A stretch of 46,577 nucleotides of DNA from Leucoraja erinacea (GCF_028641065.1 NW_026575474.1:1-46577); one strand, 5' to 3'. Positions 4,280-28,159 are shown, numbered from the stretch's first letter. Notes: a model not told the origin generated them from the sequence alone. Numbers and translations: made by a program.

Positions 4280-4846
4280 TGGAGAAACACACTGGATTTT
4301 ATTGAACCGACCCAGTGAAGCCCCACCCCCCCCCCCCAAAGACCACCACAACCCCATCCCACATTCCCCCCCCTCCCCCCCCCCCCCCCCCCCCCTGTCC
4401 ACGGTGGATGTGACGTCACAACGCCAGGAACCCCCCCACTCCGTCTCCGTCTCCGTCTCCGTCTCCGGGCCTTGGGTCAACCAGCGCTGCAACCAGCTGT
4501 GATTCATTCCCACCAGATGTTGATCGGGACTGCCCCCCCCCCCCCCGAACCCCGTCATTACAGGAACATTACGGGCAGCAGCAGCCCCCCTCCCCCCCCA
4601 GTGCAGTCAGTAAATGAGCAGCGACCCACAGAGCGAAGCGCAAAGTCCAAATCACCAAATCAGCTGTAGATGCGCTCATTGTTCACCCATCCCCCCCCCC
4701 CCCCCACCATTACACCCCCCCCCAATCCCCCGTGACCCCCCAATCCCGTGACCCCCCATCCCCCACACAGCAGAAACCCCGCCAACATGTTCCGCTCTCC
4801 ACCGACGCTCCTGCACCGGCGGCGGCGGCGGCGGCACACGGCGACC
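4280..4846 (-). other. Putative non-coding 3'UTR terminal exon of the MHC class I gene
   Basis: Strong acceptor ctctctgtctgtctgtctcccccag (AG at 4848-4847). AATAAA on the minus strand at 4303-4298, followed by a GT/T-rich tract. The preceding exon has a donor 1 nt after its stop codon. Confidence 0.55.
4298..4303 (-). terminator. Putative polyadenylation signal AATAAA
   Basis: TTTATT on the + strand, with a downstream TGTGTTT/TGTTTTGT element on the minus strand. Confidence 0.55.
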
Positions 4847-5499
4847 CTGGGGGAGACAGACAGACAGAGAGACGGAGAGAGAGAGTTGGTTACAGAGCGA
4901 CACAAGCCCACCCGTGTAGCAGTAGTACTGACCCCCCCCCCCCCTGCCGGCAATACACTACCCCCCAGCACCACAGGACAGTACAGCACAACAACAGGCC
5001 CTCCGGCCCACAATGTCTGTGCCGACCATGCTGCCGACACCAACTATCTGTCTGCGCGTCACCTCCCCCCCCGCTCCCCGCATGTCCACGTGTCCATCCA
5101 CAAGTCTATTTAATGTCACTGTCGTGTCTGTGTCGCCCCCCCCCCATCCCCTCAATTATCAGCAATAAAACCACCCCCCCCCCCCCCCCCCGGATTAACT
5201 GCCCCGCCCCCCGGGAAAACCCACCCCCCCTCACTGGATATGATCCCCCCCCCCCAACACACACACACACACCGCTAGCATAACATAACCCCCCCCCCCC
5301 CCCCCACCCCACACATACAAACGCACGGTAGCCCCTCCCCTCGCAACGGGGCATTAAACCCACAGCTCCCCGCCGGGATACCCCCCCCTTCCCCGGTGAT
5401 AAAACCCCCCCCCCCCACGGGAATGATATCCACGACCCCCTCCCTCCAGCAGAATAAACGCCACCCCCACAGGGTTTGCGGGGGGTCCCAGTTCCTACC

Positions 5500-5546
5500 T
5501 CAGGCTGGAGCAGAGGAGTTTGATGAGTTTTCCCCGCGCTCCGAGG
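5500..5546 (-). CDS. MHC class I heavy chain, cytoplasmic exon 2: (T)SERGENSSNSSAPA*
   Basis: Acceptor ccttccctccgcag, phase 1. TGA at 5502-5500, then G|gtagga donor. The Ser-rich tail resembles cartilaginous-fish class I C-termini. Confidence 0.85.
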
Positions 5547-5604
5547 CTGCGGAGGGAAGGAGCGACGTTACACGTCAACTGGCGACGCCGTGGGTGCAGT
5601 GAGG

Positions 5605-6020
5605 CGCGGACAGACGGACACGCGCACACACACGAGCACGGGGACACAGGGACTCGCACGGACACGTACACGTGGCGGGGACGCGCACAGACGGTCACAG
5701 CGCAGACACGTGGACAGATACGCAAGGGTCACACTGACGCGCACAAAAATACACGGACACACACGGACACGCGCAGACATACACGGACACGCGCACACAC
5801 GGACACGCGACACACACGGACAGACACACACGGACACGCGCAGACACACACGGACACGCGACACACACGCGCACACACACGGACACGCGCAGACACACAC
5901 GGACACGCGCAGACACACACGGACACACGCGCAGACACACACGGACACGCGCACAGACACACACGGACACGGGCAGACACACACACGGAAACGCGCAGAC
6001 ACACAAGGACACAGACACAG
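5605..6020. repeat. Intronic ~20-bp minisatellite (CAGACACACACGGACACGCG)n
   Basis: Visible tandem units between the two cytoplasmic exons. Confidence 0.9.
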
Positions 6021-6027
6021 TACTTAC

Positions 6028-6057
6028 TGTTGGTGGCATTGTAGCCGCTGTTCCCCG
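6028..6057 (-). CDS. MHC class I heavy chain, cytoplasmic micro-exon 1 (30 nt): (A)GNSGYNATN
   Basis: Acceptor ctgtctctgtgttttacag and donor gtaagt, phase 1-1. Carries the conserved class I cytoplasmic Tyr (GYNA). Confidence 0.87.
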
Positions 6058-6164
6058 CTGTAAAACACAGAGACAGTTGTCAACCCTCAGCTCTCAACCC
6101 AATCACACAGCGGACACGGGCTGGGCTGTGACTGGGAAGAGTGGGACAGGCAGCAGCTCAGGGC

Positions 6165-6910
6165 TGGGCCCGGCCCCAACACCCACACCGGCCCCCAGTC
6201 CCACCCCACACCCACACCGGCCCCCACACCGACACCCACACCGCCCCCCACACCGGCCCCCGCCCCCACACCGGCCCCCGCTCGCACACCGGCCCCCACA
6301 CCCACACCGGCCCCGACACCCACACCGGCCCCCACACCTACACACGGCCCCCGACCCCACACCGGCGCCCACACCCACACCGGCGCCCACACCCACACCG
6401 GCCCCCGCTCGCACACCGGCCCCCCGCTCGCACCCCGGCGCCCACACCCACACCGGCCCCCACACCCACACACCGGCCCCCACACCCACACCGGCCCCAC
6501 ACCCACCACCGGCCCCCACACCCACACACCGGCCCCCACACCCCACACCGGCCCCCACACCCACACCGGCCCCCACCACCCACACCGGCGCCCACACCCA
6601 CACCCACACCCACACCCACACCGGCGCCCACACCTACACCCACACCGGCCCCCACACCCACACCGGCCCCCACACCCACCACACCGGCCCCACACACACA
6701 CACCGGCCCCCACACCCACACCGGCCCCCACACCCACACCGGCCCCCACACCCACACCGGCCCCCACACCCACACCGGCCCCCACACCCACACTGGCCCC
6801 CCACACCACCACCGGCCCCCACACCCACACCGTCCCCCACACCCACACCGGCGCCCACACCCACACAGCCCCGACATCGGTTCCCCACACCCACACCGGC
6901 TCCGACGACA
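6165..6910. repeat. Intronic ~18-bp minisatellite (CACCGGCCCCCACACCCA)n
   Basis: Dozens of tandem units; they explain the PTPAPT/HRPP/GAGVGV ORFs in all six frames. Confidence 0.92.
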
Positions 6911-7747
6911 CCCGCACAGAGATGGCCCGGGGGATGGGGAGGGGGGGGGAGGCGGGGTGAGGGAGAGTGAGGGGGAAACGGGGGGGGAGGTGGAGGAAAC
7001 TCAGGGAAGGGGATGGAGGGGGAGGGGAAGGACGGGGTCGGAGGCGATGGGGGAGGGAGAGAAAGAGGGGGAGGGAGGTGGGAAGAGGGTGGTGAGGACC
7101 GGGAGAGAGGTGAGATGGAGGGGGAGATGGAGGGGTAGGCGTGAGTGTGGGGCAGATTGAGTTGTACTCGGTGTTTCCGCTGGGTCAGGCCACGGGGGTG
7201 GAGGTGCCCGGAGGATGATGCAGACACATGCGGCGGGCGGGAGGTCACGTTGACCCGGGGCAGAGCTGCGGTTTGAGGGAGGAGGATTGGAGAATAATCC
7301 CCCCTCCCCCGGGGGCTGCAATGTGTTTGCGCTGCACGAGGGGTGGGGGAGCAGAGACTCTCAGCCCGATGGATGTCCGGCCCGGAGCTGCCAGGCAGAG
7401 AACCAGCGGCCCAGAGCCGGCAAATGGGAGCAATGTCCACGGGCCCCTGACGGGCAGACACGGACACGGTGGGCCGAAGGGCCTGATACTGTGTTGTCTG
7501 GACCCCCCCCGTGTGCTCCTACCCCCACGTGGCAGAAGGGGGCGGGCGGAGAGAGGTTGAGACGGGAGTCTGGGGAGGGAGCGGGGAGGAGACGGGAGAC
7601 AGAGGAAACAACGTGACGTCTTGTATCAGAAGAGTCGGGGGTCAGGGGGAGGGTGAAGGTCGTAGTTCGGGGGCAGGTTGAGGTACATGGGTCGGGGGGG
7701 GGAGTTGAGGAGAGGACGCCCCTCCAATGTCTCCCCCCCACTCCTAC

Positions 7748-7855
7748 CTTGTTTCTTCTTCCAGTAGAGGACTCCCCCCACGACAGCGGCCACCACCAGC
7801 ACCAGGACAACGAGCACCAGGACAATGGTCATCACGGTGATGCCCGACTTGCGGA
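7748..7855 (-). CDS. MHC class I heavy chain, connecting peptide/transmembrane exon: (F)RKSGITVMTIVLVLVVLVLVVAAVVGGVLYWKKKQ
   Basis: 108 nt, phase 1-1, cag| acceptor and G|gtagga donor. Hydrophobic span followed by a basic stop-transfer KKK. Confidence 0.88.
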
Positions 7856-8195
7856 CTGTCCCAGATTCACAAACACAGGCGGATGAGAGACAGAGACCGG
7901 GTCACGCATACCCCTCTTCTCCCCCAATCATCCTTCCCGAAGTCTCACTCACCCCCCTCCCCGTTCTCTCCCCCTCATCTCCCTCCCGAGCTGCTTCCCT
8001 CCGCAACCACCTGCCCTGAGCGCTACCCCACTCCTCCTCACCAACTCTCTCACCCTCCGCCCATCTCATACCCCCCCCCTCCCTCCAATCTCCCGCTCTC
8101 CCCCTCCCTCACCCATCCTCTATTTCCTAACCCTCCCCTTCCCTCTCTCCGATCTCCCGCTTCCCCCTCACCCCCCGCTCCCGCCCTCCACTCAC

Positions 8196-8459
8196 ACAGG
8201 AAGACCTCGAGGGGCTCGGACAGCCCCGGGTGCTCCACACGACAGGAGGGCGGGGCCGTGTCCCCGGGCTCCACGTGGGCCCAGCGGCGCTGCTGGAAGG
8301 TGCCGTCCTGGTTGGGCAGCGTCCCGTGGGAGCGGCTCTCATCCAGGACCAGGCCGTCCCGCACCAGGTTCACCTCGATGGAGCACGAGTAGAAGCCCGT
8401 GATGAAACAACAAACGCGGCTCCCATACCCCGACAGGAAGATGCTCACCTCCGGCTGAA
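8196..8459 (-). CDS. MHC class I heavy chain alpha3 (Ig C1-set) exon
   Basis: 264 nt, phase 1-1, ctctccccacag acceptor and gtgagt donor. Reads QPEVSIFL...CFITGFYSCSIEVNLVRDG...GTLPNQDGTFQQRRWAHVEP...SCRVEHPGLSEPL, with the C-x3-GFY, PNxDGTFQ and CxVEH signatures. Confidence 0.93.
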
Positions 8460-8789
8460 CTGTGGGGAGAGGCTCAGTGAGGGGGAGACAGTGAGGGGGG
8501 TGGGGGGGGGGGGGGGGGGGGTGTGAGTGGGGGGACAGTGAGGGAGGGGGGGGGGTGAGGGGGGCAGTGAGGGGGAGACAGTGATGGGGGGGAAGTGAGG
8601 GGTGACAGTGAATGAGGGACAGTGAGGGGGACAGTGGGGGGACAGGATGGCCCGATTAGAGCAAAGGGCAGGTTGGCAGGTTTGGGGAACCCTGGCCGAT
8701 GAGCAATTATATTGAGGTTCTGGAAAAGAAAAAGATGGCACCCTACAGGTTTAGGTAGTCGAGATGAAATTAATCACTCGCCGAGAAGC

Positions 8790-9330
8790 GTGGGAGTAAA
8801 TCTAAGTGGGAAATCCCGAGGGCATAAGGAAAGTATTAGATGGATCTGGCAGTCCAGGTAAAGGAACATTCCAAGAGATTCCACAGGTATATTGAGTGTA
8901 AAATGGTGCCCAACGTGTGAAAAGGTCCCTTTAAAGATCAGTGTGGCTATTTCTGTGTGGAGGCAAATATATGTGAGATTGTAAATAAATATCTCATCAG
9001 TTTTTACTGTATAAAATCATGGAAGCTGAGGAATTAAGACAAATGGGCTGTGATGTATTGGGCCATACACACATTTCCAAAGAGGATGTCTTGGTGGTCC
9101 TAAAGCACATTAGAGTAGCTCAAACCCCAGGGCCTGACCAGGCGGGAATATTTAAAAACCGGCAGTTGGAGGTGAGAGTCAACGTGAGGCTTGAACAGCG
9201 ATTAAAAGGAGGGCAGGCTCAATCGGAGCAGCCATTTTGGGGTGCTGCTGTAGATCAAAGTGTGGTTTTGCTCAGTTCTCGGAGGTGGCCAAGCAGCACA
9301 CAGGCTAGGGCAAGGATGGTCACTTCTCAT
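8790..9330 (+). mobile_element. Old degenerate CR1 fragments
   Basis: EDVLVVLKHIRVAQTPGPDQ resembles the CR1 ORF2 KVDKSPGPD region. Confidence 0.55.
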
Positions 9331-9337
9331 TTCCATC

Positions 9338-12200
9338 AGAAAGATACAATAAGGTGGAGTAACTCAGCGGGCTCAGACAGCATCTCTGGAGAAAAGGTAT
9401 AGGTCAAATTTCCGGTCGAGACCCTTCTCCAGACTGAGCGTCAGGAAAAAGGGAAACAAGATATAGACACGGTGATATAGGGAAATATAAATCAAATGAA
9501 TGAAATATATGCAAAAAAGTAGCAACAATATTAGACAGGCCTTTGTTAGCTGAAGGGCCAAGTGAAAATGAGTTGCAGACAATGAAACTCACCATCGCGA
9601 CACTGAACCTAGTTCAACAACTAGGGTGGGAGAGGGACGGAGAGAGAGAGAGCGGTTGCAAGGGTTACTTGAAGTTACGAAAATCAATATTCATACCGTT
9701 GGGTTGCAAACTGCCCAAGGAAAATAAGAAGTGCTGTTCCTCCAATTTGCGTTTGGCCTCACTCTGACAATGGAAAACCCCAGGACAACAAGCTACATGT
9801 GGAATGGGAAGGGGAATTAAAGTGTTTGGCAACCGGAAGATCAGGTAGGACCAGGCCGACTGAGCGAAGGTGTACAGCGAAACGATCACTCATTTTATGT
9901 TTGATCTCACCGACGAATTAGAGTCGACACCATGAACAATGGATACAGTAGATGGTTGGAGGAGATGCAAGTGAACGTCTGCCGAACCTGAAGGGTCCAT
10001 CAAGGTCCCAGGACAGTCGCAGGATGAGGCATTATGGACAGGTGTTACATCTCCTGCGGTTGCTGATGAAGGTACCTGGGGAGGAGGTGGTTTGGGTGGG
10101 AAGGGATAAGTTAATCGGAGGGAACGGTCTCTGCGGATGGTGGAAAGGAGTGGAGATGGGAAATTGTGACTTGTGGTGGGATCCCGTTGGATTCATGTAA
10201 AGATCAGTTGATCAAAGTGCAGGATCAGCATGTTCCAGTACGGAGGAGCGACAAGGTTGGCAAAATATTGCAACTGTGGGTGTATACTTGGTCAGGAATC
10301 AAATTTGGAAAATACAAATATGGCAAGACAGCTTGAGCGAGAAAGAGGTCGTGCTGAGGTTGTTGAAAAACATTAAAGTCAGGGCCGGATTTATTATTAA
10401 GCTATTTCAAATGTGAACCCCTTCCCCACCACCCCCCCCCCCCCCACTCCCAGTCCCCCCCCACCCCCACGACTAGAGGACCATGACTACCCGACAGTGA
10501 CAGTGTGACACTTTTAGATCCTACTGTATGTTGTCATTAAATAGTTGGTTTTAAAATACAAATTGGATTCACCGTGGAGCGGGCGACAACTTACGTGTAT
10601 CGCCATTTGAAGTTCTGGAGTGGTGGGCCTGCTGCTTCAACATCTTGGAGCTGTGGTTTGCGGAGCTCCCAGCCTCAGGCTGCGCTGATTTAAACATTGT
10701 GAAACCCTGGGATCCCTTTGCCGAGAGCCGCCAGCGTGAATCTCCGCCCTGCTCAGCCTGTGGAATTTGGGTGGTGCGGGAGGGAAGGGAAGAATTGACC
10801 AGAGAATTGTGGAGGGAGCGGTCTTTGCAGAAAGCGGACAACGGGGGAGGGAGGGGGGGGAGGTGAGAGATCCGAAGATGTGGCGAGTGATGGGGTCACG
10901 TTGGAGGTGGCGAAAATGACAGAGGCCAATTTGTTGTACGTGACGGCTAGTGGGGTGAAAGGTGAGGGCTAGGGGGACTCTGCCCTTGTGACGTGTGTGG
11001 GGGGGAGGGGACAGAGAGCAGTGTTACGGGGTATGGAAGAGACCCTGGCGAGAGCCTCATCTATAGAAGGGGAGTGGAACCCCCGTACCTTGAAGAAGGA
11101 CGACATTTCCGATGCCCTGATGTGAAACACATCATCTTGGGAGCAGATGCGGCGCAGACGGACGAATTGGGAGAGTATCAGTGGACGGGTATATGTTGAT
11201 TCTCCGGTCGAGGAAGAACCGGAGGGCTTTGAGACTATCCTGGTGGGGGATGGAGGTGTAGAGTGACTGGACGTCCATGGTGAAGATGAGTGGGTGAGGG
11301 CCTAGAGAATGGAATGCCCGGAGACGACGGAGAGTGTCTGAGGTGTCTTGAACATAGGAGGGGAGGTATTTAACCAGGGGGATAGGATGGAGTCAAGGTA
11401 TGTGGAGATGTTTTCGGTAGGGCACGAATAGGCCGAGTCAATGGGTCTAGCAGGACAGTCAGGTTTGTGGATTATGGGGAGAAGGTAAAATCGGGCCGTG
11501 CGAGGCCGGGTAACGATGAGGCTGGAGGCGGTGGGGGGCAGCAGTGGACGAAGTCAGTGATGGTGCTGGAGATAGTGGCCTGGAAGTACGCTGTGAGGTG
11601 GAGGCGACGGTAGAAGAGCTCCAAGTCGAGGTGGGCGCGGAACTCATTGAGGTGGGGGCGGAGGGGGACAAAGGTAAGACCTCTGCTGAGGACCGGACGT
11701 TCGGTGTCAGAGAGGTGGAGGTCAGGGGTGATGGTGATCACCCGGCAGGGATGGGGGTTGGGGCCGGAGGAAGGCAGGTGGGTGGACTGGGGACGAGGCG
11801 ATGTGTGGTGGGGGAGTGGTGGGTAGGAGGGTATGAGGACTGTAATGTGGGTGGGGAAGAGCAGGGGTCACGTAGCTTGAGGGGGATGGGGAAGACCCAG
11901 TGCAACAGCAACGGAGGTTACCAGTGTTAGGGGGACTTGCACAAAGACCCAGTGTAGTCAACCCCAGGGGTGTTGGAGTTAGCAACGTGGAGGCTTCATG
12001 CCCGGTGCTGGGTGCTGGTTGCAGGTAAGGCAACGGCTGGATGGCGGTGGAGTGGCGAGGGTTGACGGACCCGATGGTGGGAGTCCGCGGGGAGTAGAGT
12101 TCGGGTCGGCGGGCGATGCGTGGGCGGTCCCGGTGGGCGGATGGTCGGTGGGGCGGCGCGGGTCGGCCAGCCCGGTGAGGCGACGCGGTGAGTAGGGCGC
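9338..12200 (-). mobile_element. Penelope-like element, fragmented (RT, GIY-YIG C-terminus, terminal repeat)
   Basis: DLHLSDTERPVLSRGLTFVP N-terminal motif, IFTMDVQSLYTSIPH RT motif (~11240-11290), AFCKDRSLHNSLV linker, and HCQSEAKRKLEEQHFLFSLGSLQPNGMNIDF C-terminus (9665-9780). Terminal repeat at 9340-9440 has a decayed hammerhead core. Interrupted around 10195-10755. Confidence 0.85.
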
Positions 12201-12942
12201 AGTGAGGCGGCAATGTTCGGACAGCCCGGTGCAGCCGCGATGTTAGGTAGGTCCGGTGCGGCGACAATGTTGTGTGGGCCCAGTGCGAGGTGGGTCGGCC
12301 AGGTGCGGATGCGAGGTGGATAGACCCCAGATGCGGCGGAGAGGCCAATGTTGTTCGTTTCTTTAAGAAATTAAACAAAATCCAGGGAACTGTAGTCTGG
12401 TGAACTACACGTCCGTGCTGGGGAAACAAATGGAGAGAACTCTCCGAGATAGGATGTACTCCTGTTCTACCCGAATATGGTATCAACTGGCGCGTCGAAT
12501 AAAATAATCCAAACCAATGATTAGTACAACTAAATCTTTATTTGCATCGATTTATTTAAGCATGCATGCAAACTGTTGAAATCTAAGAGGTGCTCATTTA
12601 TTTTATTATTTCAACATAATTTCTTAAACGAAATTACAAAACTCTTGACTTTGACTAGATATTACCCGTATGAATGATTTGGGAATATTCTCTCTGATGG
12701 TTGGGGGTAGTATTCTCCGATTTACAAGTTCAGGAACCTCGTTTTTACTACAGTGGTGCCCGGGTTGTCCCTGTCGATCTCTCGCTCGGACAGCCATTCT
12801 TTTCAATATTTTTTCCTACCATTTTCGAAAGAAGCCTTTGTTCTAACCCAAGGCTTTCATGACTATGAAGTAAATCATTTCAAGTTGTCACTCCTCCAAC
12901 GGCTGAATAAACACATCATCTTAGTTCCCTATCAAGCTAGAG

Positions 12943-13100
12943 CAGCGTTTCTCAACCGCGGTTCCCCGGAGCGCTGGGGTTCAGCGAGAGGTCGCTACGG
13001 ATTCCGATTGAAATAGTGATAGATAGGCTAATTGTATGTAAATGAATGTTAGCGTTATGTTTGTGTTTAATTTCATATTCGTAATTCTCCCGCTACATAG
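12943..13100 (+). mobile_element. hAT (Charlie-like) transposon end
   Basis: CAGCGTTTCTCAACC TIR-like start directly after AGCTAGAG, a Charlie-type target. The partner TIR was not found. Confidence 0.45.
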
Positions 13101-14340
13101 GCCCCCACATCCCCCCCCCCCCCCCTCTCTCATGCGCTTTCATCCCCTGCACTCTCCTCTGTGTGTCTGCTCTCCATCTCACACTGTTTCTGTCTTCCTG
13201 TCACCCCCTGTGAGTCGTTCCCCTCTTCCAATTCAGCATCACCCCTCTCTGGTTCTTCGCTCGCTCTTCTTTCTACCTCGCTCGTGTCCCTCGCTATCTC
13301 ACTAGCCATTCCCTATCTCCGAATTATTTATTGCGCTCCTTCCTTTGCCCTCCTCTGTCACCCCATTAATCCGCATGATGTTTCGGCTCCTACTCCTCTC
13401 TCTTTCTATCGATCACATAGACCCATCTTGGCCGAGCAACTCACACTCTCCCTCCGCCCCCCCCCCCCCCCAGGGGGGTGATATACGATGCTGAGAACAT
13501 CTTTTCCATTTATAAACCGGCACAAAATCTTGATACATGTACATCTACAAAAAGTCACCAGGTTCGATCTTCGTGCCACATATTTATTGCTGGGACATGT
13601 CGGTCGCTGTTGGCAGGTTCGGCCGAAGGGCCGACAGACATCCGCAGACACTGTTGGACGGTTGGGCATGGCAGTGAAGGAGTGTGGAAGGTGAGTCGTT
13701 TCTAACTTTGGAAATAAACGGATAAAACATGACCTACTGTCTACTGAAGTGTCAGTGTCGGGTGGGTGAGGCCGATCTTAGGGTAGGGAGTCAATGACGC
13801 ACAAAGACAGAGGGAGATTACAAGAGATGAACAACGCTCAGCATGGAGATTGGAAGGTGGTTCTTGGTGGAAGAGCACGCTCAGATGTAGGGGATTGAAG
13901 GATAATTCTGGGCATTTTTATTTCAGACGGACCTCGTTCAAGAAGCATATCGGGCCCGCGGAGGGAGATGGGACTATTGGTCGCGAGGCCGAATTTGCCC
14001 AAGACCTGTCCCCACTGCGGAGTAAAACCGCATAAACGGTCCCAGAGTGGGGTTCACATCAGATGGGTTCCCATTGAAGATGAGAATGGGACGATTGGTA
14101 CTAGGTCAGACTTTGCACCAGAGTAGTCTCCGCTATGCAGAGAGGATTTGTTCTTGGCCGGAGTTTACACCAGGCTGTGTACGGAGTCGGGTCGACTGGG
14201 CAAATGTGCAGTTCTCACTGTGAGGGGATTGAGGTCATGGAGCAGTGGCCTTCGATGTGATCATCCGCCCAGGAAAATCTGGTGTGATTGTCAGGATCAC
14301 GAGCACGGCCAGAGAGGCTGCATCCGCCTGCTGGATGTTC

Positions 14341-15254
14341 TCATTGCGCGCATTTATTAATGAGCCGGAGCACTGAAGCGAACGGATATTTCACCGCTCC
14401 CTTCATCTGCTCTCTAAACTTGGACTGGGTGGCCACGTAAATAAACGTGTTCGTGCAGCAGCTGAGATTACTCAGCAAATGCCCGACGTCGTCAGCGATG
14501 TGAGCAGAAACATTCGGACCTTTTGAATTTCCTCTGATTTTATTATAGACCACGTATGAAACCAACGTCAGCCATCGTGCGATGAAGCAGCCGGAGATGG
14601 TGAAGAGTAAAACCACAGACTTTCTCCTACTCTCCATCTCCGGGTCACTGCGGCTCTCCTCCCTCCTCCTTGCTCAGACCCCTCAGCCCCTGACGGACTC
14701 GACTAGCCACTAAAATTTGGCGGACTGTCAGACCATTGAGCATGAGAATTACAACGAAAGGGACGACGGGATTGCAAACCTTGTCGAAGTAGGTAAATAC
14801 CTCCCATCCGTGGGTAGTTTTAACACTGGCCAACGTTTTACAGCCCCATGCGACATTGCCGATGATCACAGCGGGTCCACTTACGACGTAGAAAGTGACG
14901 TTTTTCAGAAGAATCAGAACGCCGGTTGTTGCGAGAACCGCAGCCGCAGTTTTCCCGGTGCAATATTTTGTTTTCAGCTTCTGGCAACAAATGGCGACAC
15001 ACCGATCAAACGTGAAAGTGACGGTGAACCAGACAGAACACTCTCTAGCTGTATACTTTAGCACCATGGTAACACAAAAACAGGGGTGATGCCCAGGAAA
15101 CTCCACCGAAAGTAATATATTCGGATCTGATGTAAAATGACCTCGATGATGAGGACCAGTAGATCGGACGCTCCCATGGCTACCAGGTAGCGAGTGGTGC
15201 AGGTGGAGAGGCCACATTTTCCCCGGGACAGAATCACAATCGCCATTAAATTCA
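14341..15254 (-). pseudogene. GPR139/GPR142-like orphan class A GPCR, copy 1, exon 2 (frameshifted as assembled)
   Basis: Near-identical to the intact copy 2, but has A5 instead of A6 at ~15076-15080 (premature stop at 15058) and a 7-bp CTCCTCC duplication at ~14655-14670. Acceptor cctttctgcag is intact. Confidence 0.8.
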
Positions 15255-15287
15255 CTGCAGAAAGGGAATTGAACGGATGCTGGGCAT

Positions 15288-15455
15288 TGATTCAGATTCA
15301 GATTCAATTTTAATTGTCATTGTCATTGTCAGTGTACAGTACAGAGACAACGAAATGCATTTAGCATCTCCCTGGAAGAGCGACATAGCACATGATTTGA
15401 ATAAATAATAATACGTGTCCGGGGGGGGGGGGTGATTGGCAGTCACCGAGGTACT
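15288..15455 (-). mobile_element. LINE 3' terminal fragment (Rex1/Babar-like) with (CTGAAT)n tail, in the GPCR intron
   Basis: GATTCA x3 tail plus ATTAAA on the minus strand, ending ~35 nt upstream of the exon 2 acceptor. Confidence 0.5.
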
Positions 15456-15457
15456 GG

Positions 15458-17505
15458 TGTCATAGTCATAGAGCGATACAGTGTGGAATCAGGCCCTTCG
15501 GCCCAATTCGCCCACAGCGGACAACAATGACCCAGCTACACTAGTTCCACTTGCCTGCGCGTGATCACTATCCCTCCAAACCCGTCCTATCCATGTACCT
15601 GTCAAATCGTTTCATAAACAATGGGATAGTCCCAGACTCAACTGTCTCCTCTGGCAGCGTGTTCCATACACCCACCACCCTTGTGTGAAAAGGTTACCCC
15701 TCGTAGTTATATTAACTATTTTCCCTTTCACCTTGAACCTATGTCCTTTCGTCCCCTATTCCCCTGCCCAGGGCGAAAGACATTGTGCCTCTACCAGATC
15801 TATTCCTCTCACGATTGTATACACCTCTATAAGATCTCCCCTCAACCTCCTGCGCGCCATGGAATAAAGAATAATGAATAATGGTAATATCCTCGTAATT
15901 CATTTCTGAACCCTTTCAAGCTTGACAATATATTTCCTATAACAGCCCTATAACATTCAGAATTAAAGACACTATTCGAGATGCGGTCTCACCAACGTCT
16001 TGTACAACTGCAACATGACCTCCCAACTACTATACTCAATACTCTAACTGATGAAGGCCAAAGTGCTAAAAGCCTTTTTGATCACCTTATCTGCCTGTGA
16101 CTCGACCTTCAAGGAAATATGCACCTGGACTACTAGATCCCTCCGCTCTACAACACTACCCAGAGGCCTACCATTTACTGTGTAGGTCCTTCCCTGGTTC
16201 GCCGTCCCAAAATGCAACACCTCACATTTTTCTGCATTAAATTCCATCAACCATTCTTTCGCCCACCTGGGCAATCGATCCAGGTCCTGCTGCAATCATT
16301 CACAGCCATCTTCACTATCTGCAAAACCACATTTATATCATCAACAAACTTGCTAATCTCGCCCTGTGTGTTCTCATCCAAATCATTGATCTTGATGACA
16401 AACGGTAACGGGCCCAGCACAGAACCCTGAGGCACACCACTAGTCACAGGCCAGTCTGAGATGTAAACTTTCAACATCACCCTCTGCTCCATTCCATGGA
16501 ACCAATTTTCCATCCATTCAGCTATCTCTCCTTGGATCCCATGCGATCTAACCTTCCAGAGCAGCCGACCATGCGGAACCTTGTCAAATTCCTCACTGAA
16601 ATTCATGTAGACAACATCTACAGCTCTGCCCTCATCAACCTTTTTGGTCACGTCTTCAAAATATTCAATCCGAATGTGAGACACGACCTCCCACGTACAA
16701 AACTATACTGACTATCCCTGATCAGCCCTTGCCCATCCAAATGCCTGTATAACCTATCTATCGGAACACTCGTCAGTAACTTACCAACAACAGATGTTAA
16801 GCTCACCGGCCGATAGGCCCCGGCATTTTCCTTGCAACCCTACTTGAAAAGAGGCGCAACATTTGCCACCCTCCAGTCATCCGGCACCTCTCGTGTATTT
16901 AACGACGATTCGTAAATTTCTACCAGGGCTCCCGCAATTTCCTCTCTAGCTTCCCACAATGTCCTCGGATATATCTGATCAGGTGCTGGCGATTTGTTTA
17001 TCTTCAAACACGTCAGTACATTTAGTACTTCTTCTTGACTGCTCTCAAAACACTTCAAGTGACTGCTCCAATTGCTTCCGTCCGACTCGGTAAGTACAAA
17101 GGGAAAATATTCATTTAGGACCATGCCCATCTCCTGTGGCTCCACACCGAGGTGGTCGCTTTGATTCCTGACAGGTCCCATTCTCTCTCTAACCCTTTCC
17201 CCCCTTATTTATTTATAAAACATTTTGGGGTTGTCCTCAATGCTAGCCGTCAGAGCTATATCCTGTTCCCTTTTGCCTTTCTGATACCCGTGTTAGTTGA
17301 CTCCTTAGTTCCCGAAACTCCTCCAGGGGTGCACCTGATCCCAGCTGCCTACACTTGTCCCATGCATCCTTCTTGTTTTTGATTAACGTCTCAATTTCAC
17401 TCGTCAGCCAAGCTTCCTTACGTCTGCCTGCTTTGCGCGTCACTATAAACGGGATGTACACATCCTTAGCTTTCTTCAGTACGCTGTTAAAAACATCCCA
17501 CGGCC
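15458..17505 (-). mobile_element. CR1 LINE, 5'-truncated and degenerate, in the GPCR intron
   Basis: [35 protein letters not shown] and KSPAPDQIYPRTLWE motifs; 3'UTR and tail near 15460. Confidence 0.92.
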
Positions 17506-17554
17506 GATGTTCCTTTCCTCTCAAATAACCTGCACCAGGCAACTTGAGCGAGAC

Positions 17555-18088
17555 CGCAAGATGGTGCCTGCCTGCGGAGCACCAGAACAGAAAAGGTTCA
17601 CCTCTAACTCCTATCAACTCACCTGGACCAGGGAAACGGCAATAATCGGTGCCGTTTCAGACAAGCTGTTTGGGCAGCTGAAAGCGTTGGCAATTTCATG
17701 ATCTCCCGCAGCTGCGGAAACCACGCTTTAAAATGTCCCACGCTGGCTGTAAAACTCCCGACCTGACTGAGGATCCCAGGTACGATACCTGCAGACCCCG
17801 GGATGACCCCCGGAGCCGACGGGCTGTGTCTCCCAGAAACAATTATGCTGGAGCTGCTGACTTTGGGGGAACCGCCGTTCGTTACGGAGCTGGAGCTGCC
17901 GTCTGTGAAGGAATCCTTGTTTCAGCGCAGTTCCACAGAAACTGCAGTAAATATAGTACCTGGAAACAAAGGGGAAGCCTCCATTGTGTCCGGAACGTGG
18001 CCGACGGGCAGGACTTCAGGTCAGACTGAAGCGCAGGGGACTTCGTCCCCTTCTCCCTACTACCCTACTCGCCAATGTACAGTCCCTC
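17555..18088 (+). mobile_element. Rex1/Babar LINE 5' fragment
   Basis: RGRRAGLQVRLKRRGLRPLLPTTLLANVQSL, the typical start of the APE endonuclease in this clade; CAAGATGG motif at the 5' end. Confidence 0.7.
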
Positions 18089-18925
18089 GTAATCTCATCC
18101 TTTGTAATTGACACTAAAATATTATCACCCACCGAAGTCAGACTAACTGGCCTGCAGTTTCCACTGTTCTGCTCCGCTGCCTTCTTGTACAGCGGGGTGA
18201 TATTCACAATGTTCCAATCTTCAGGAACCAACCTAACTCTAGTGATTCTTGAAATAACAGAACTAAATAACGCCTCCTCAATTTCTGAGGCCTCCACCTT
18301 CGGACCCCAGTGGCGCAGTCCATCCGCTCCAGGTGACTTATCCACCTTCAGACCTATCCGTTTTTCCAGCACCTTCACATTAGTAATCGCCACTCCACAA
18401 ACTTTCACCCACTGAGTCTCTCGGATCACACGCGCACGACAGGTGTCTTCCACTGTGAAGACTGATGCAAAACAGTTATCCAATCCCACTGTCATTTATT
18501 GATTTTCCGTTATCACTTAGCCTGCATCATTTTCTAGCACCCCAACGTCCACTCTTGCCTCTTGTTTTCCTCTTCATATATCCATAGGAACTCTTGCTAT
18601 CCACTGTTATATTTTTGGACATCTTATATTCGTACTTCATCTTTTCTCGCAGTATTGTCCTTTCAGTTAACTGTTGCTGTTCATTAAAAACATCTAAATC
18701 CTCTGACTTACCACTAATCTTTGCAATGTTATATGCTTTCTCCTTCGCTTTTATGTTGTCCTTGACCTCCCTTGTCAGCCTTTGTCGGCTTATTCATCCC
18801 TGGAATATTTCTTCCACTTTGTAATGAAATGATCCTGCACCTTCCGAATTATTCAATGAAATACCTGCCATTTCTGTTCTACAGTCATTCCGACCAAAGC
18901 CCCTTATCTGTCAATCTTTTCCAGC
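18086..18925 (-). mobile_element. CR1 LINE internal fragment, degenerate
   Basis: LKVDKSPGADG...VPEDWNIVNITPLYKK...NCRPVSLTSVG motifs. Confidence 0.85.
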
Positions 18926-19338
18926 TCCAACAGGGGATGGTATCCGACTGTGACGGACTCCATTGTGAGATTCCATAATGAAACTGCACCGTGAAATGCA
19001 TCCCATTGTGAACTTCACAAAGTAAACTCCGCTCAGTCACACATCTCCGGATAGCTGCCGTTCCCGAGCAGTGTGGCAACTTAAGGCAAGGTGCCACTGA
19101 AGTCAAGAACAACATTATAGTGGGTCTCGAGATTGACAAGAAAAGATAAGTCGTTTCTGATAGAGAGGGAGCACGGTAAAGAATTAAAATAAATTCGGCG
19201 TGAATTAAACGGAGAGGATTAATATCACTGACATCCGTGTACAACGATCATAATTTGGGAAACTTGCGAAAATGATCAGCATCAGGATAAAACATTAAGA
19301 CACGGATTTATAACAAAATAATTATTCTGCTCACTTAC

Positions 19339-19414
19339 CAGGGACTCCAACGGTAGCAATGATCACGTACAAGATTTTCTCCACACTGTGATATCTGTCC
19401 ACCATGTCCATCAT
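19339..19414 (-). CDS. GPCR copy 1, coding exon 1: MMDMVDRYHSVEKILYVIIATVGVP
   Basis: ATG at 19414, 76 nt, perfect G|gtaagt phase-1 donor. Joining to exon 2 gives ...VGVP-VNLMAIVIL, the TM1 GxPxN motif. Confidence 0.88.
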
Positions 19415-20007
19415 GTTCTCTTCTCAGCCACGTCACCGTGTGCAACCTATAATCTCCCGGAATGGATTACTGGGGCAGAACAATCTAGGAGATGTTATAC
19501 CATTTCCCATCTCCGCCGGGACAGTGCAGTTTTAACAGAGTTAAAAATAGAGACGTTGAAACAATTCCCAAACAGATGACATCAGGCGAGTGAAATCCAC
19601 GCTGTTAACAGGTTGTCAATATTTTTTTAAATTATAGTTACGAAACATCAAATCGCGGCGAAATTGAAAAATGGGATTTGGGAGCGGCTTTGTTCCAGCA
19701 AAGGGAATAGTGTTTCAAACATAATCAGATCCAACTCTCCACCTCAAGTTACTCGTCTGATTTCCTTCATCACGCTTCACTGAACACGGTGGTCTCAAAT
19801 TCCTGGCACTGTCTCGGGGCTTCTGGTGCGCAGTTTCAAGACAGACGGCGACCACAGGTGGAGGAATTAATTCAAAGTGATTACGGCTCATCAGATTGCC
19901 ACTTTAACATGATAATCCCAGCAGCGCTGGTAACCGCACACTTTGCCTGCCTGGAATGTATCTTATTTTGGCGCTTGCAAAGTAACATTCTCTGCCTTCA
20001 TCACCTA

Positions 20008-23000
20008 TATAATAACCATATAACAATTTACAGCACGTAAACAGGCCATCTCGACCCTTCTAGTCCATGCCGAACACGTATTCTCCCCTAGTCTCCTATA
20101 CCTGCGATCAGACAATAACCCTCCATTCCATTCCCGTCCATATAACTATCCAATTTATTTTTAAACGATAAAAACGAACCTGCCTCCACCACCTCATTCC
20201 ACACAGCTCATTCCACACAGCCACCACTCTCTGAGCAAATAAGATCCCCCTCATGTTACCCCTAAACTTCTGTCCCTTAATTCTCAAGTCATGTCCCCTT
20301 GTTTGAATCTTCCCTACTCTCAGTGGGAAAAGCTTATCCACGTCAAGTCTGTCTATCCATCTCATCATTTCAAAGACCTCTATCAAGTCCCCCTTAACCT
20401 TCTGCGCTCCAAAGAATAAAGACGTAACTTGTTCAACCTTTCTCTGTAACTTAGTCGCTGAAACCCAGGCAACATTCTAGTAAATCTCCTCTGTACTCTC
20501 TCTATTTTGTTGAAATCCTTCCTATAATTAGGCGACCAAAATTGTACACCATACCCCAGAATTGGCCTCACCAATGCCTTGTACAATTTTAACATTACAT
20601 CCCAACTTCTATACTCAATGCTCTGATTTATAAAGGCCAGCACACCGAAAGCTTTCTTTACCACCTTAACTACATGAGATTCCACTTTCACGGAACTAGT
20701 TATTCCCAGATCCCTCTGTTCACCTGCATTCTTCAATTCCCTACCATTTACCATGTACGTTCTAATTTGATTTGTCCGGCCTAGATGTAGCACCTCACAC
20801 TTATCAGCATTAAACTCCATCTGCCATCTTTCAGACCACTCTTCCAACTGGCATAAATCTCTGTGTAGACTTTGAAAATCTACTTCGTTATCCACAACCC
20901 CACCTATCTTATTATCAACTGCATACTTACTAATCCAATTTACCACACAATCATCCAGATCATTGATGTACATGACAAACACCAGTGGACCCAACACAGA
21001 TCCCTGTGGCACCCCACTAGTCACTGGCCTCCAAACTGACAAACAACCATCCACCATTACTCTCTGTCATTTCCCATTCAGCCACTGCTGAATCCATCTT
21101 GCTACTCCACCATTAATACCCAACAATTGAACATTCTTAACCAACCTTCCGTGAGGAACCTTGTCAAAGGCCTTACTGAAGTCCATATATACAACATCCA
21201 CTGCTTTACCCTCATCAAGTTCCCGAGTAACCTCTTCAAAAAATTCAAGAAGATTAGTCAAACATGACCTTCCAGGCACAAATCCATGTTGACTGTTTCT
21301 AATCAGACCCTGTTTATCGAGATGCTTATATATATTATCTCTAAGTATTCTTTCCATTAATTTGCCCACCACTGACGTCAAACTAACAGGTCTATATTTG
21401 CTAGGTTTACTCTTAGACACCTTTTTAAAGAAAGGAACGACATGCACAGTACGCCAATCCTCCGGCATATTCCCGTTTCTAATGACATTTCAAATATTTC
21501 AGTCATAGCCCCTGCTATTTCTACACTAACTTCCGTCAATGTCCTAGGGAATATCCTGTCAGGACCTGGAGACGTATCCACTTTTATATTTCTCAAACGT
21601 GTCAGTACTTCCTCTTCTTTGAATCTCATAGTTTCCATAGCTACTCTACTTGTTTCCATTACCTCACATCATTCAATATCCTTCTCCTTGATGAATACCG
21701 AAGAAAATAAATTGTTCAATATCTCCCCATCCCTTTTGGCTCTGCAGATAGCTGTCCACGCTGACTCTCTAATGGACCAATTTAATCCCTCGTTATCCTG
21801 TTGCTATTAATATAGCTGTAGAAAGCCTTTGGATTTACTTTCACCTTACTTGCCAAAGCAACCTCATATCTTCTTTTAGCTCTTCTAATTTCTTTCTTAA
21901 GATTATTTTTACATTCTTTATACTGCTCAAGCACCTCATTTACTCCATGCTGCCTATAATTATTGTAGATCTCTCTCTTTTTCCGAACCAAGTGTTCAAT
22001 TTCCCTTGACAACCATGGCTCTTTCCAATTTTTACTATTTCCTTTCAACCGAACAGGGACATAAAGATTCTGTACTCTTAAAATGTCACCTTTAAATGTC
22101 CTCCATTTATCTTCCACATCTTTCCCACAAAACAAACTGTCCCAATTTACTCCTTTTAAATCATTTCGCATCTCCTCAAAGTTAGCCTTTCTGCAATCAA
22201 AAATCTCAACCCTAGGTCTAGTTCTGACCCTTCTCATAATTATATTGAAACTAATGGTTTTGTGATCACTAGACACGAAGTGCTCCCCAACGCATACCTC
22301 TGCCATCTGACCCGTCTCGTTTCCTAACAGTAGGTCCAGCACCACCCCTTCTCTAGGAGGTACTTGTAGGTATTGCTGCAAAAAGCTATCCTGCACACAT
22401 TTTACAAACTCCAACCCATCCAGCCCATTTACAGAATGTGTTTCCCAGTCTATGTGTGGAAAATTGAAATCTCCCACAAGCACTACCTTGTGCTAACTAC
22501 TAATATATGCAATCTCCTTACATATTTGCTCTTCCAATTCTCGCTCCCCATTTGACGGTCTATAATACATCCCTATAAGTGTCGCTACCCCTTTCCCATT
22601 TCTCAGTTCCACCCAAATAGCCTTCCTAGACGAGCCCTCTAATCTATCCTGCCAAAGCACTACTGTAATATCTTCCCTGATAAGCAATGCAACACCTCCA
22701 CCTCTTGCCCCTCCAATTCTATCACACCTGAAGCAACGAAATCTTGGAATATTTAGTTTCCAATCACAGCCCTCCTGCAACCATGTTTCACTGATCGCCA
22801 CAACATCGTACTTCCAGGTGTCAATCCAGGCTCTAAGTTCATCCACCTTTCTTACAATACTCCTAGCATTAAAATATACACATTTAAGACCCCCCCCCCC
22901 TCTTATTCTATGTTTATTGTCTTTTTCTTCTCTCTCCCCTATATTTTAGGTCAGAGTGCTACCATTCTCTGCCTCCTGCCTCACACACAGACTGCTAGCT

Positions 23001-23725
23001 TTCCAATTTGAGTCCCTCCCCCCAACCATACTAGTTTAAATTCTCCCCAGTAGCCTTTGCAAATCTCCTCGCCAGGATATTGGTCCCCCTCGAGTTCAAG
23101 AAAGCAACCCGTCCATTCTGTACAGGTCGCACCTTCCACAAAAGAAGTCCCAATGATCCAGAAACTTGAATCCACACCCACTGCACCAGTCCTTCAGCCA
23201 CGCATTTATTCTCCACCTTGCTCCATTCCTACTCTCACTGTCGCGTGTCACAGGCAGTAATCCTGAGATTGTTACCTTTGCAGACCTTCTCCTTAACTCT
23301 CTACCTAACTCCCTAAATTCTTCTTTCAGGACCTCTTCTCTTTTTTTACCTATGTCGTTGGTACCTATACGTACCACAACCTCAGGCTCCTCTCCCTCCC
23401 ATTTCAGGATTTCTTGGACCCGTTCAGACACATCCCTGACCCTGTCACCAGGGAGGCAAACTACCATACGGGTCTCCTGTCTGCGTCCACCGAATCGCCT
23501 ATCCGATCCCCTGACTATTGAGTCCCCTATTACAATTGCCCTCCTCTTATTTTCCTTACCATTCTGAGCAACAGGACCGGTCTTTGTGCCAGAGGCCCGG
23601 CCGCTGTCGCTGCCCCCAGGTAGGCTGTCTCCCCCACCCTTACTCAAACATGATTACTTATTTTCAAGGTGTACAGCCACCGGGGTACTCACCAGTCCCT
23701 GCCTCTGCCCGTTGCCCTTCCTAAC
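20008..23725 (-). mobile_element. Near full-length CR1 LINE: 3' part (ORF1 SGNH esterase, ORF2 APE endonuclease and RT)
   Basis: AIVIGDSIVRG...VCLPG...IGTND esterase (23096-23647), VVAISETWL and VGDFNFPHIDW endonuclease, YMDFSKAFDKVPH and [12 protein letters not shown]; (ATATGGTT)-type tail near 20010. Confidence 0.95.
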
Positions 23726-26357
23726 ACTAAGGGGCAGAAAACAATGGTGGGGGTTGTGTACAGGCCGCCTAACAGTAGTAGTGAAGTTGGAGATGGTATC
23801 AAACAGAAAATGAGAAATGCGTGCGACAAAGGCAAAACAGTTATAATGGGTGACTTCAATCTACATATAGATTGGGTGAATCAAATTGGCAGGTGTGCTG
23901 AGGAAGAGGATTTCTTGGAATGTATGCGGGATAGTTATCTAAATCAACATGTAGAGGAACCAACGAGAGAGCAGGCTATTTTAGTCTGGGTATTGAAAAA
24001 TGAGGATGGGTTAGTTAGCAATCTTGTTGTACGTGCCCCCTTGGGCAAGAGTGACCATAATATGGTTGAGTTCTTCATTAGGATGGAGAGTGACATTGTT
24101 AATTCAGGAACAATGGTTCTGAACTTAAAGAAAGGTAACTTTGAGGGTATGAGACGTGAATTGGCCAAGACTGACTGGCAATTAATTCAAAAAGGGTTGG
24201 CGGTGGGTATGCAATGGAAGACATTTAAAGGGTGCAAGGATGAACTACAAAAATTGTTCATACCAGTTTGGCAAAAGAATAAATCAGGGAAGGTAGTACA
24301 TCCGTGGATAACAAGTGAAATCAGGGATAGTATCAAAGCGAAGGATGATGCGTACAAATTAGCCAGAAAAAGCAGCATACCGGAGGACTGGGAGAAATTC
24401 AAAGACCAGCAGAGGAGGACAAAGGACTTAATTAGGAAAGGGAAAATAGATTATGAAAGAAAACTGGCAGGGGACATAAAACTGACTGCAAAAGTTTTTA
24501 TAGATATGTGAAAAGAAAGAGATTAGTTAAAACAAATGTAGGTCCCTTGCAGTCAGAAACAGGTGAGTTGATCATGGGGGACAAGGATATGGCGGACCAA
24601 TTGAATAACTACTTTGGTTCCGTCTTCACTAAGGAAGACATAAATAATTTGCCGGAACTAGCAGGGGACCGCGGGTCATAGGAGTTGGAGGAATTGAGTG
24701 AAATCCAGGTTAGCCGAGAAGTGGTGTTGTGTAAATTGAATGGATTAAAGGCCGGTAAATCCCCAGGGCCAGATAGGCTGCATCCCAGAGTACTTAAGGA
24801 AGTAGCTCCAGAAATGGTGGGTGCATTAGTAATAATCTTTCAAAACTCTTTAGATTCTGGAGTAGTTCCTGAAGATTGGCGGGTAGCAAACGTAACCCCA
24901 CTTTTTAAGAAGCGAGGGAGAGAGAAAATGGGGAATTACAGACCAATTAGTCTTACATCGGTAGTGGGGAAACTGCTAGAGTCAGTTATTAAAGATGGGA
25001 TAGCAGCACATTTGGAAAGTGGGGAAATCATTGGACAAAGTCAGCATGGATTTACGAAAGGTAAATCTTGTCTGACGAATCTTATAGAATTTTTCGAGGA
25101 TGTAACTAGTAGCGTGGATAGGGGAGAACCAGTGGATGTGATGTATCTGGACTTCCAGAAGGCATTCGACAAGGTCCCACATAAGAGATTAGTATACAAA
25201 CTTAAAGCACAAGGCATTGGGGGTTCAGTATTGATGTGGATAGAGAACTGGCTGGCAAACAGGAAGCAAAAAGTAGGATTAAACGGGTCCTTTTCACAAT
25301 GGCAGGCAGTGACTAGTGGGGTACCACAAGGCTCAGTTCTGGGACCCCAGCTATTTACAATATATATTAATGATCTGGATGAGGGAATTGAAGGCAATAT
25401 CTCCAAGCTTGCGGATGACACTAAGCTGGGGGGCAGTGTTAGCTGTGAGGAGGATGCTAGGAGACTGCAAGGTGACTTGGATAGGCTGGTTGAGTGGGCA
25501 AATGTTTGGCAGATGCAGTATAATGTGGATACATGTGAGGTTATCCATTTTGGTGGCAAAAACGGGAAAGCAGACTATTATCTAAATGGTGGCAGATTGG
25601 GAAAGGGGGAGATGCAGCGAGACCTAGGTGTCATGGTACACCGGTCATTGAAGGTAGGCATGCAGGTGCAGAAGGCAGTAAAGAAAGCGAATGGTATGTT
25701 AGCTTTAATTGCAAAAGTATTTGAGTATAGGGGCAGGGAGGTACTACTGCAGTTGTACAGGGTCTTGGTGAGACCACACCTGGAGTATTGCGTACAGTTT
25801 TGGTCATCAAAACTGTACGCAAGGAAGGGCATTATTGCCCTAGAGGGAGTGCAGAGACGGCTCACCAGACTGATTCCTGGGACGGCAGGACTGTCTTATG
25901 AAGAAAGACTGGATAGACTTGGTTTATACTCTCTAGAATGTAGAAGATTGAGAGGGGATCTTATAGAAACTTACAAAATTCTTAAGGGGTTGGACAGGCT
26001 AGATGCAGGAAGATTTTTCCCGATGTTAGGGAAGTCCAGGACAAGGGGTCACAGCTTAAGGATAAGGGGGAAATCCTTTAAAACCGAGATGAGAAGAACT
26101 TTTTTCACACAGAGAGTGGTGAATCTCTGGAACTCTCTGCCACAGAGGGTAGTTGAGCCAGTTCATTGGCTATATTTAAGAGTGAGTTAGATGTAGCCCT
26201 TGTGGCTAAGGGGATCAGGGGGTATGGAGGGAAGGCAGGTACGGTATACTGAGTTGGATGATCAGCCATGATCATATTGAATGGCGGTGCAGGCTCGAAG
26301 GGTGGAATGGCCTACTCCTGCACCTAATTTCGATGTTTCTATGTTTCTATGTTTCTA
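23726..26357 (+). mobile_element. Younger CR1 LINE (5'-truncated ORF2) nested in ORF1 of the minus-strand CR1
   Basis: ORFs 23669-24511 and 24685-26190 (501 aa, RT with LADDTK); (TTTCTATG)n tail 26333-26357; CTAAC duplicated at 23721-23725 and 26355-26359. Confidence 0.95.
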
Positions 26358-26956: not shown

Positions 26957-26959
26957 CCA

Positions 26960-27442: not shown

Positions 27443-27445
27443 ACA

Positions 27446-28158: not shown

Positions 28159-28159
28159 G

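What the first reader, a model, noticed from the sequence alone, without database searches (positions are those of the whole stretch)
4280..8459. Intact 3' half of an MHC class I gene with no alpha1/alpha2 exons in 38 kb upstream
Seen: four coding exons with canonical splice sites, all phase 1 and stop-free, plus a 3'UTR exon and poly(A) signal. Upstream I can recognise only repeats and GPCR genes. Established: class I genes need leader, alpha1 and alpha2 exons 5' of alpha3. Three readings remain open: a decapitated class I gene, a groove-less class I-like gene, or GPCR genes nested same-strand inside a >38 kb alpha2-alpha3 intron.
Basis: partly seen in the sequence, partly recalled or inferred. 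Interest (0 to 1): 0.7.

Follow-up and report, generated by a model that had tools for sequence, protein, structure and literature searches.

The report
Headless skate MHC class I fragment
This is the back half of a skate immune gene (MHC class I) that lacks its peptide-binding front half on this contig and is joined, at a repeat inside an intron, to a receptor-gene block; it is most likely a decaying gene fragment of the kind already known from the human HLA region.

Summary
Observation confirmed; most likely a real 5'-truncated pseudogene fragment of a classical-type class I gene. The window is a whole 46.6-kb unplaced contig. Alpha3, TM, two cytoplasmic exons, UTR exon and AATAAA are present; no alpha1/alpha2 is detectable. 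The '38 kb upstream' is two copies of one ~20.7-kb GPR139-like receptor block. The break lies in a C-rich minisatellite that precedes alpha3 in all paralogues examined: at 8640/8641 it is fused, with 5-nt microhomology, to the middle of a decayed LINE. Short-read contigs from two samples bridge this junction, so it is real DNA; the 180 bp from there to alpha3 rest on the assembly alone. 'Intact' is overstated: alpha3 has six private amino-acid changes, including loss of the otherwise invariant FYP proline; no RNA read carried this copy's letters (thin data). No free intact head exists in the assembly. At least one more headless copy (C1000, 68 kb without alpha1/alpha2, a different junction) and headless gene models in two other skate genera suggest the minisatellite is a recurrent break point. 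Same anatomy as human HLA-T (exons 4-7). The scan had not noted this before.

The parts
8196..8459 (-). MHC class I alpha3 (Ig C1) exon, classical (Ia/UAA)-type; private changes D12Y, T20I, P25S, R26C, H51Q, L71P
7748..7855 (-). transmembrane exon
6028..6057 (-). cytoplasmic exon 1 (two private K>N changes against C1000, C196, C1159)
5499..5546 (-). cytoplasmic exon 2 with stop codon
4280..4846 (-). 3'UTR exon; AATAAA at 4303-4298 (3' end inferred)
8460..8640 (-). remnant (~180 bp) of the C-rich (CCCCCCTCACTGT)n minisatellite of the alpha2-alpha3 intron, ending in the normal acceptor
8636..8645 (.). break point 8640/8641: minisatellite fused to the middle of a decayed LINE; CTGTC microhomology; bridged by short-read contigs of two samples
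8585..29327 (.). tandem unit, copy 1 (~20.7 kb): LINE/SINE remnants, one GPR139-like gene, retroviral-like remnant; collinear with C943 over 8641-20006 at 87-93%
29328..46577 (.). tandem unit, copy 2, cut by the contig end; begins with 57-58 bp of the same minisatellite joined (CCCA microhomology) to the retroviral-like remnant; this junction not tested with reads
19339..19414 (-). GPR139-like gene copy 1, coding exon 1 (25 codons, phase-1 donor)
14341..15254 (-). GPR139-like gene copy 1, exon 2 (7TM; a 1-nt deletion and a 7-nt insertion against copy 2, real or error)
40170..40245 (-). GPR139-like gene copy 2, coding exon 1
35157..36064 (-). GPR139-like gene copy 2, exon 2 (open frame)
27700..29327 (-). 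broken retroviral-like remnant, 94% like C877 and repeated in the genome; env-like by a recalled motif only (no Pfam hit)

Best explanation
It is the alpha3-to-poly(A) half of a duplicated classical-type skate MHC class I gene, fused inside its intron-3 minisatellite to a GPR139-like receptor block, and it is likely a non-functional fragment that lost promoter, leader, alpha1 and alpha2 in that rearrangement. Shown: the exons, the junction, its presence in other samples, the private changes in alpha3. Inferred: a double-strand break in the G/C-rich minisatellite was repaired by microhomology-mediated joining (CTGTC) to a LINE in a neighbouring receptor-gene array (such receptor genes also lie on class I contigs C1000, C1159, C732); the orphaned half then drifted; later the 20.7-kb unit upstream was tandemly duplicated with a second break in the same minisatellite.
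For: Alpha3 falls in a 100/99 clade with whole genes, apart from 8 other-lineage alpha3 of the genome; those whole genes keep the eight anchor residues in 3 of 4 proteins (motif recalled). All 7 paralogous contigs have the minisatellite directly 5' of alpha3; 33 of 35 exact 35-mer hits lie on class I contigs. Paralogous receptor blocks C943 and C1148 run on as LINE where the window switches to minisatellite. X1 (8566-9016, 1 difference) and X2 (8566-8795, 0 differences) bridge 8641 with 75 letters on the short side and follow copy 1 for 19 letters past the copy-2 break; X1 also holds the unbroken form. FYP proline lost here, kept in 17 of 17 other rows; longest end branch in the clade, 0.076. 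Census: alpha3 on 8 contigs, classical-type alpha1 on 4, whole alpha2 on 3; the two orphan heads (C732, C894) are broken in alpha2. RNA: 0 reads with this copy's letter at 8249 (0/7), 8308 (0/7), 8385 (0/2), 8388 (0/2), and 7785 (0/12, letter shared with C1000 and C196).
Against: No read or contig spans from the junction to alpha3 (8486-8565 was skipped as repeat). The contigs that cover alpha3 in X1-X3, X5 and X10 show the paralogue letters at the listed private sites, never this copy's; contigs drop variants, so this is inconclusive, but it is not support. Only 2 of 6 contig runs bridge the junction, both one study and one organism label, not the label that holds the RNA runs. 6 N: 1 S fits neutrality (P=0.44) but does not differ from the other five copies (11:11, Fisher p=0.19). 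RNA depth is very thin (1 and 5 in 100 of two runs). The contig ends, the assembly is visibly unreliable in this family (mosaic alpha3 on C1000 and C1416), and C1159 keeps its head across a 14-kb intron. One junction cannot tell deletion from insertion.
Confidence: 0.68

Rival explanations
1. The head still exists beyond the contig end: the receptor block was inserted into intron 3, making an intron over 38 kb with same-strand receptor genes inside. The gene would probably be crippled anyway.
For: Contig ends at 46,577; C1159 has a 14,024-bp alpha2-alpha3 gap filled with LINEs against 2.0 and 3.3 kb in C1416 and C1256; the assembly may miss heads.
Against: No unassigned intact alpha1+alpha2 in the assembly; no full-length protein with this copy's alpha3 among 7 longer hits; alpha3 decay; two same-strand genes with their own terminal exons would sit in the intron.
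Confidence: 0.15
2. Assembly misjoin: the LINE-minisatellite junction is real but belongs elsewhere, and the assembler or polisher linked it to alpha3 through the low-complexity repeat.
For: Remnant is only ~180 bp and holds a C homopolymer, against 0.4-7 kb in paralogues; mosaic alpha3 copies on C1000 and C1416; copy 1/copy 2 differences look like errors (95 transitions, 178 transversions, many homopolymer indels); a copy of the minisatellite lies on C6 without class I exons; no contig links junction to alpha3.
Against: The minisatellite is nearly confined to class I intron 3 (33 of 35); the junction occurs only on this contig, twice; this 3' half has 7 private substitutions and no indel in alpha3, so it is a distinct copy that needs some upstream neighbour.
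Confidence: 0.11
3. A functional groove-less class I-like gene: the receptor gene's promoter and phase-1 exon 1 (19414-19339) splice in frame to alpha3, giving a membrane protein of one Ig C1 domain.
For: Exon 1 is on the same strand with a phase-1 donor; downstream frame and splice sites are intact; headless models occur in Amblyraja (7) and Rhinoraja (5); HLA-G isoforms lacking alpha1 and alpha2 are reported (PMC13106471, passage).
Against: Exon 1 encodes half of TM1, not a leader; the receptor's own exon 2 lies between; FYP proline lost and an extra cysteine gained; no RNA read with this copy's letters; no such chimera among the protein hits; the other skates' headless models begin with intron read-through, not a leader, and group by genus.
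Confidence: 0.05

Closest known systems
Human/ape MHC-T (HLA-T) fragment pseudogene (PMC12674619, section on MHC-T read whole; listed as 'class I gene fragment' in PMC12936402, passage)
   Same: Exons 4-7 only (alpha3 to cytoplasmic tail) after a deletion, within a class I region that grows by block duplication.
   Different: Independent origin in skates; much younger (alpha3 DNA 93-96% identical to paralogues); break point is visible in an intronic minisatellite and fused to a receptor-gene block.
Elasmobranch classical MHC-Ia (UAA) and the 'MHC-Ia-like' copies mentioned as unpublished in PMC10751288 (passages); PDB 6LUP is the best solved match of the whole paralogue P0004 (E 1.8e-96; that it is nurse shark UAA is recalled)
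   Same: Alpha3 92% identical to whole skate genes; tail of the C1159/Amblyraja type.
   Different: No leader or groove; neighbours are GPR139-like genes rather than the zinc-finger genes that the paper describes around Ia-like copies.
HLA-G isoforms lacking alpha1 and alpha2 (PMC13106471, passage)
   Same: Alpha3-TM-tail product without a groove.
   Different: Those are splice forms of a whole gene with its own promoter and leader; here the DNA is missing and no transcript was seen.

Membership tests
Classical-type (Ia/UAA) class I lineage | alpha3 groups with whole classical-type genes, apart from other class I lineages | tested here: met
   100/99 clade of 10 rows; 8 other-lineage alpha3 outside. 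No named UBA/UCA/UDA/UEA references were in the tree, so the outgroups are unlabelled.
Classical-type (Ia/UAA) class I lineage | leader, alpha1 and alpha2 exons present | tested here: not met
   none on the contig
Classical-type (Ia/UAA) class I lineage | eight peptide-anchor residues (YYRTKWYY, recalled) | not testable with these tools
   no groove in this copy; present in relatives P0002, P0004, P0006, K146E in P0146
Classical-type (Ia/UAA) class I lineage | linkage to TAP and PSMB8/9 | not tested
   contig is 46.6 kb and unplaced
Class I gene fragment (HLA-T type) | retains exons from alpha3 onward, lacks the 5' exons at a defined break | tested here: met
   limited to the contig
Class I gene fragment (HLA-T type) | released from purifying selection | tested here: inconclusive
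   6 N: 1 S plus two K>N; invariant proline lost; but Fisher p=0.19 against other copies
Class I gene fragment (HLA-T type) | no protein-coding transcript | tested here: inconclusive
   0 reads with its letters at five sites, 2-12 reads per site, carrier status of the RNA animals unknown
Functional groove-less class I-like gene | own promoter and signal-peptide exon in phase with alpha3 | tested here: not met
   no class I head DNA; only candidate is a receptor exon 1 that is not a leader
Functional groove-less class I-like gene | conserved orthologous lineage across species | tested here: not met
   headless models group by genus or mix with whole genes

The most novel reading that the evidence does not exclude
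The C-rich minisatellite in intron 3 of skate class Ia genes is a recurrent break and exchange point that has split groove from stalk many times (at least two different junctions in this genome, headless models in three genera; alpha3 89-98% identical between genes whose alpha1 are 66-74% identical). I put that tier at about 0.4. The boldest tier, scored here: some of these headless halves, this one included, have captured an upstream promoter and exon (here a GPR139-like exon 1 in the right phase) and are expressed as groove-less, single-Ig class I molecules that could act as CD8 or beta2-microglobulin decoys.
Probability: 0.06. Interest if true: 0.75.

Novelty: new member of a known kind. 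Interest (0 to 1): 0.3.

Why it matters
As a fragment it is ordinary birth-and-death debris, but a well-resolved one: it shows the break point and points to an intronic minisatellite as the weak spot of skate class Ia genes. That would explain why skate annotations hold many alpha3-only 'FcRn-like' or 'BoLA-like' models and may be one reason the skate MHC assembles badly (the thorny skate was dropped from the elasmobranch MHC survey for that reason, PMC10751288 passage). It also shows class Ia-like copies interspersed with GPR139-like receptor arrays, which that paper does not mention (0 hits for GPCR/GPR139). If any headless copy were expressed, it would be a new kind of class I molecule.

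Tried and rejected
Divergent alpha2 in 8460-14300: rejected; that stretch is LINE/SINE remnants collinear with C943. Whole finding as a chimera at 8641: rejected by bridging contigs. No RNA holder listed by the run index: no evidence either way. Holes at the junction in X3, X4, X5, X10: prove nothing. Contig depth as a test of the tandem duplication: not used, the tool says it is no copy number. dN/dS test: underpowered. DNA tree of intron 4/TM: unresolved. A first exon-3 boundary was off by one, corrected. A regex missed receptor exon 1; a profile of 59 exon-1 peptides found it. Sigma-70 scan is irrelevant to a fish. Pfam gave nothing for the retroviral-like frames. Literature searches with nothing on headless skate class I genes or this minisatellite; GPR139 expansion in sharks: 0 papers. 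The two Almeida lineage papers (PMC8454915, PMC7002201) are not held, and I did not open supplements of PMC10751288; either may already list these fragments. No fold or complex was run.

Full report
Setting. The window is the whole of contig C293 (46,577 bp) of a 2.19-Gb, 1,769-contig genome. NCBI models of its paralogous loci are labelled Leucoraja erinacea, a skate.

Observation. On the minus strand lie alpha3 (8459-8196; Pfam C1-set), a TM exon (7855-7748), two cytoplasmic exons (6057-6028; 5546-5499 with the stop), a UTR exon from 4846 and AATAAA at 4303; all sites are AG/GT and phase 1. Skate alpha1/alpha2 peptides find nothing in the window (best E 0.19); nor do whole relatives or head DNA. 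But the upstream 38 kb is one ~20.7-kb unit twice (8585-25635 = 29328-46570), each with one two-exon GPR139-like gene. The two copies differ in an error-like way (1 substitution in the first 2 kb; 95 transitions to 178 transversions overall), so the duplication is very recent or artefactual; its junction at 29328 was not tested with reads.

What kind of class I gene. Alpha3 has close copies on 7 other contigs (9 matches on 8 contigs). It sits in a 100/99 clade with whole genes of this skate, Amblyraja and Rostroraja, apart from 8 other-lineage alpha3. Whole members (C1256, C1416, C1159) have alpha1 and alpha2; 3 of 4 whole proteins checked keep all eight anchor residues (motif recalled) and P0004 best matches PDB 6LUP. 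So this is a piece of a classical-type gene, not a separate lineage. Named UBA/UDA/UEA references were not available.

The break. In all 7 paralogous contigs a (CCCCCCTCACTGT)n minisatellite of 0.4-7 kb ends at the alpha3 acceptor; 33 of 35 exact 35-mer hits in the genome are on class I contigs. In whole genes alpha2 lies 2.0, 3.3 or 14.0 kb upstream of alpha3. In the window only ~180 bp of repeat remain, and at 8640/8641 they meet the middle of a decayed LINE. The paralogous receptor blocks on C943 and C1148 match from exactly 8641 and continue as LINE on the other side; the join has a 5-nt microhomology, CTGTC, equal to the end of the repeat unit. The junction 31-mer occurs only on this contig, once per tandem copy. 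Short-read contigs of two samples of one study bridge it: X1 8566-9016 with 1 difference, X2 8566-8795 with none, 75 letters on the short side; X1 also holds the unbroken LINE. The other 4 contig runs laid (X3, X4, X5, X10) list no bridging piece. Thus the junction is real DNA; the link from it to alpha3 rests on the assembly, because 8486-8565 was skipped as repeat.

State of the fragment. Against five other copies, this alpha3 has 6 private non-synonymous and 1 synonymous change, among them P25S in the FYP motif, kept in 17 of 17 other rows and in shark and bony-fish structures, an added cysteine (R26C) and L71P; the first cytoplasmic exon adds two K>N. It has the longest end branch of the clade (0.076), longer than the whole genes of two other genera. 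The ratio fits neutral drift (P=0.44) but is not significantly different from the other copies (p=0.19). Against my reading: contigs covering alpha3 in five DNA-type runs show only paralogue letters at the listed private sites, which is inconclusive because contigs drop variants. In RNA reads none carries this copy's letter (0/7, 0/7, 0/2, 0/2; 0/12 at a site shared with C1000 and C196), but 1 and 5 in 100 of two runs were read and the animals may not be carriers. Whole proteins from Logan contigs (8 in one cluster) are all of the C1416 type.

Is a head left over? Classical-type alpha1 occurs on 4 contigs and whole alpha2 on 3 (all candidates scored). The spare heads on C732 and C894 are broken within alpha2. 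No intact head is free for any of five headless tails, though the assembly may be incomplete.

Recurrence. C1000 is a second headless copy with no alpha1/alpha2 in 68 kb upstream; it shares with C196 and C76 a LINE-minisatellite junction unlike the window's. Annotations of Amblyraja (7 models) and Rhinoraja (5) also hold alpha3-first class I models with no leader; they group by genus or among whole genes, which suggests repeated births, or repeated assembly gaps at the same repeat.

Mechanism. Most likely (0.68): break in the minisatellite, microhomology joining to a LINE in a neighbouring receptor array, loss of promoter, leader and groove, drift, then a second break in the same repeat with tandem duplication (CCCA microhomology). 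Rivals: head beyond the contig end (0.15), misjoin through the repeat (0.11), expressed groove-less molecule by capture of the receptor's phase-1 exon 1 (0.05).

Comparison with the known. The anatomy equals human/ape MHC-T, which 'contains only exons 4-7' after a deletion (PMC12674619, section read). PMC10751288 (passages) mentions variable numbers of Ia-like genes in elasmobranchs as unpublished and left out the thorny skate because its MHC genes were unplaced. Searches found no paper on headless skate class I genes or this minisatellite; the Almeida lineage papers were not held and supplements were not read. Earlier scan notes held nothing on this locus; one note on the large GPR139-like family of this genome (e1-9304611) fits the neighbours.

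Verdict. Real, correctly seen, most likely an ordinary class I gene fragment; new member of a known kind; interest 0.3, raised a little by the resolved break point and the hint of a recurrent minisatellite weak spot.

Noticed in passing
G000 C1000:1-76236, C196:43146-51379, C76:57347-58301: Three more class I 3' halves share one LINE-minisatellite junction, different from the window's; C1000 has no alpha1/alpha2 in 68 kb upstream but several GPR139-like genes. C196 and C76 end 5.5 kb and 0.3 kb upstream of the repeat.
   Followed up: partly
P0129-P0132, P0145, P0147, P0148 (Amblyraja); P0133-P0135, P0149, P0150 (Rhinoraja): Twelve NCBI models start at alpha3 with intron read-through and no leader, some on chromosome-size records; real fragments or gaps at the minisatellite, not checkable without DNA.
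   Followed up: partly
G000 C732:214246-214989 and C894:409-594: Orphan class I heads: alpha2 cut by a LINE after 32 codons (C732) and degraded after about 60 (C894).
   Followed up: partly
P0002, P0004, P0146, P0006: Alpha3 is 89-98% identical between genes whose alpha1 are 66-74% and tails 55-90% identical; two tail types share one alpha3, which hints at exchange on both sides of alpha3.
   Followed up: no
G000 C1000:75300-76300 and C1416:223192-223227: Alpha3 copies mixed with minisatellite letters, likely polishing artefacts; NCBI models P0007 and P0136 are built on them.
   Followed up: no
window 14341-19414 and 35157-40245; C1000, C1159, C732: GPR139-like genes (41 DNA matches among 40 scored candidates of 792; 1,938 protein relatives) are interspersed with class I genes.
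   Followed up: partly
window 27700-29327: Broken retroviral-like remnant, cut at the tandem junction; described only.
   Followed up: partly
G000 C6:82205500-82207000: A copy of the same minisatellite on a chromosome-size contig without class I exons in the 10 kb fetched.
   Followed up: partly
window 6170-6870 and 5730-6012: An 18-bp G-rich minisatellite (38 copies) and an AC-rich array in the class I downstream introns.
   Followed up: no
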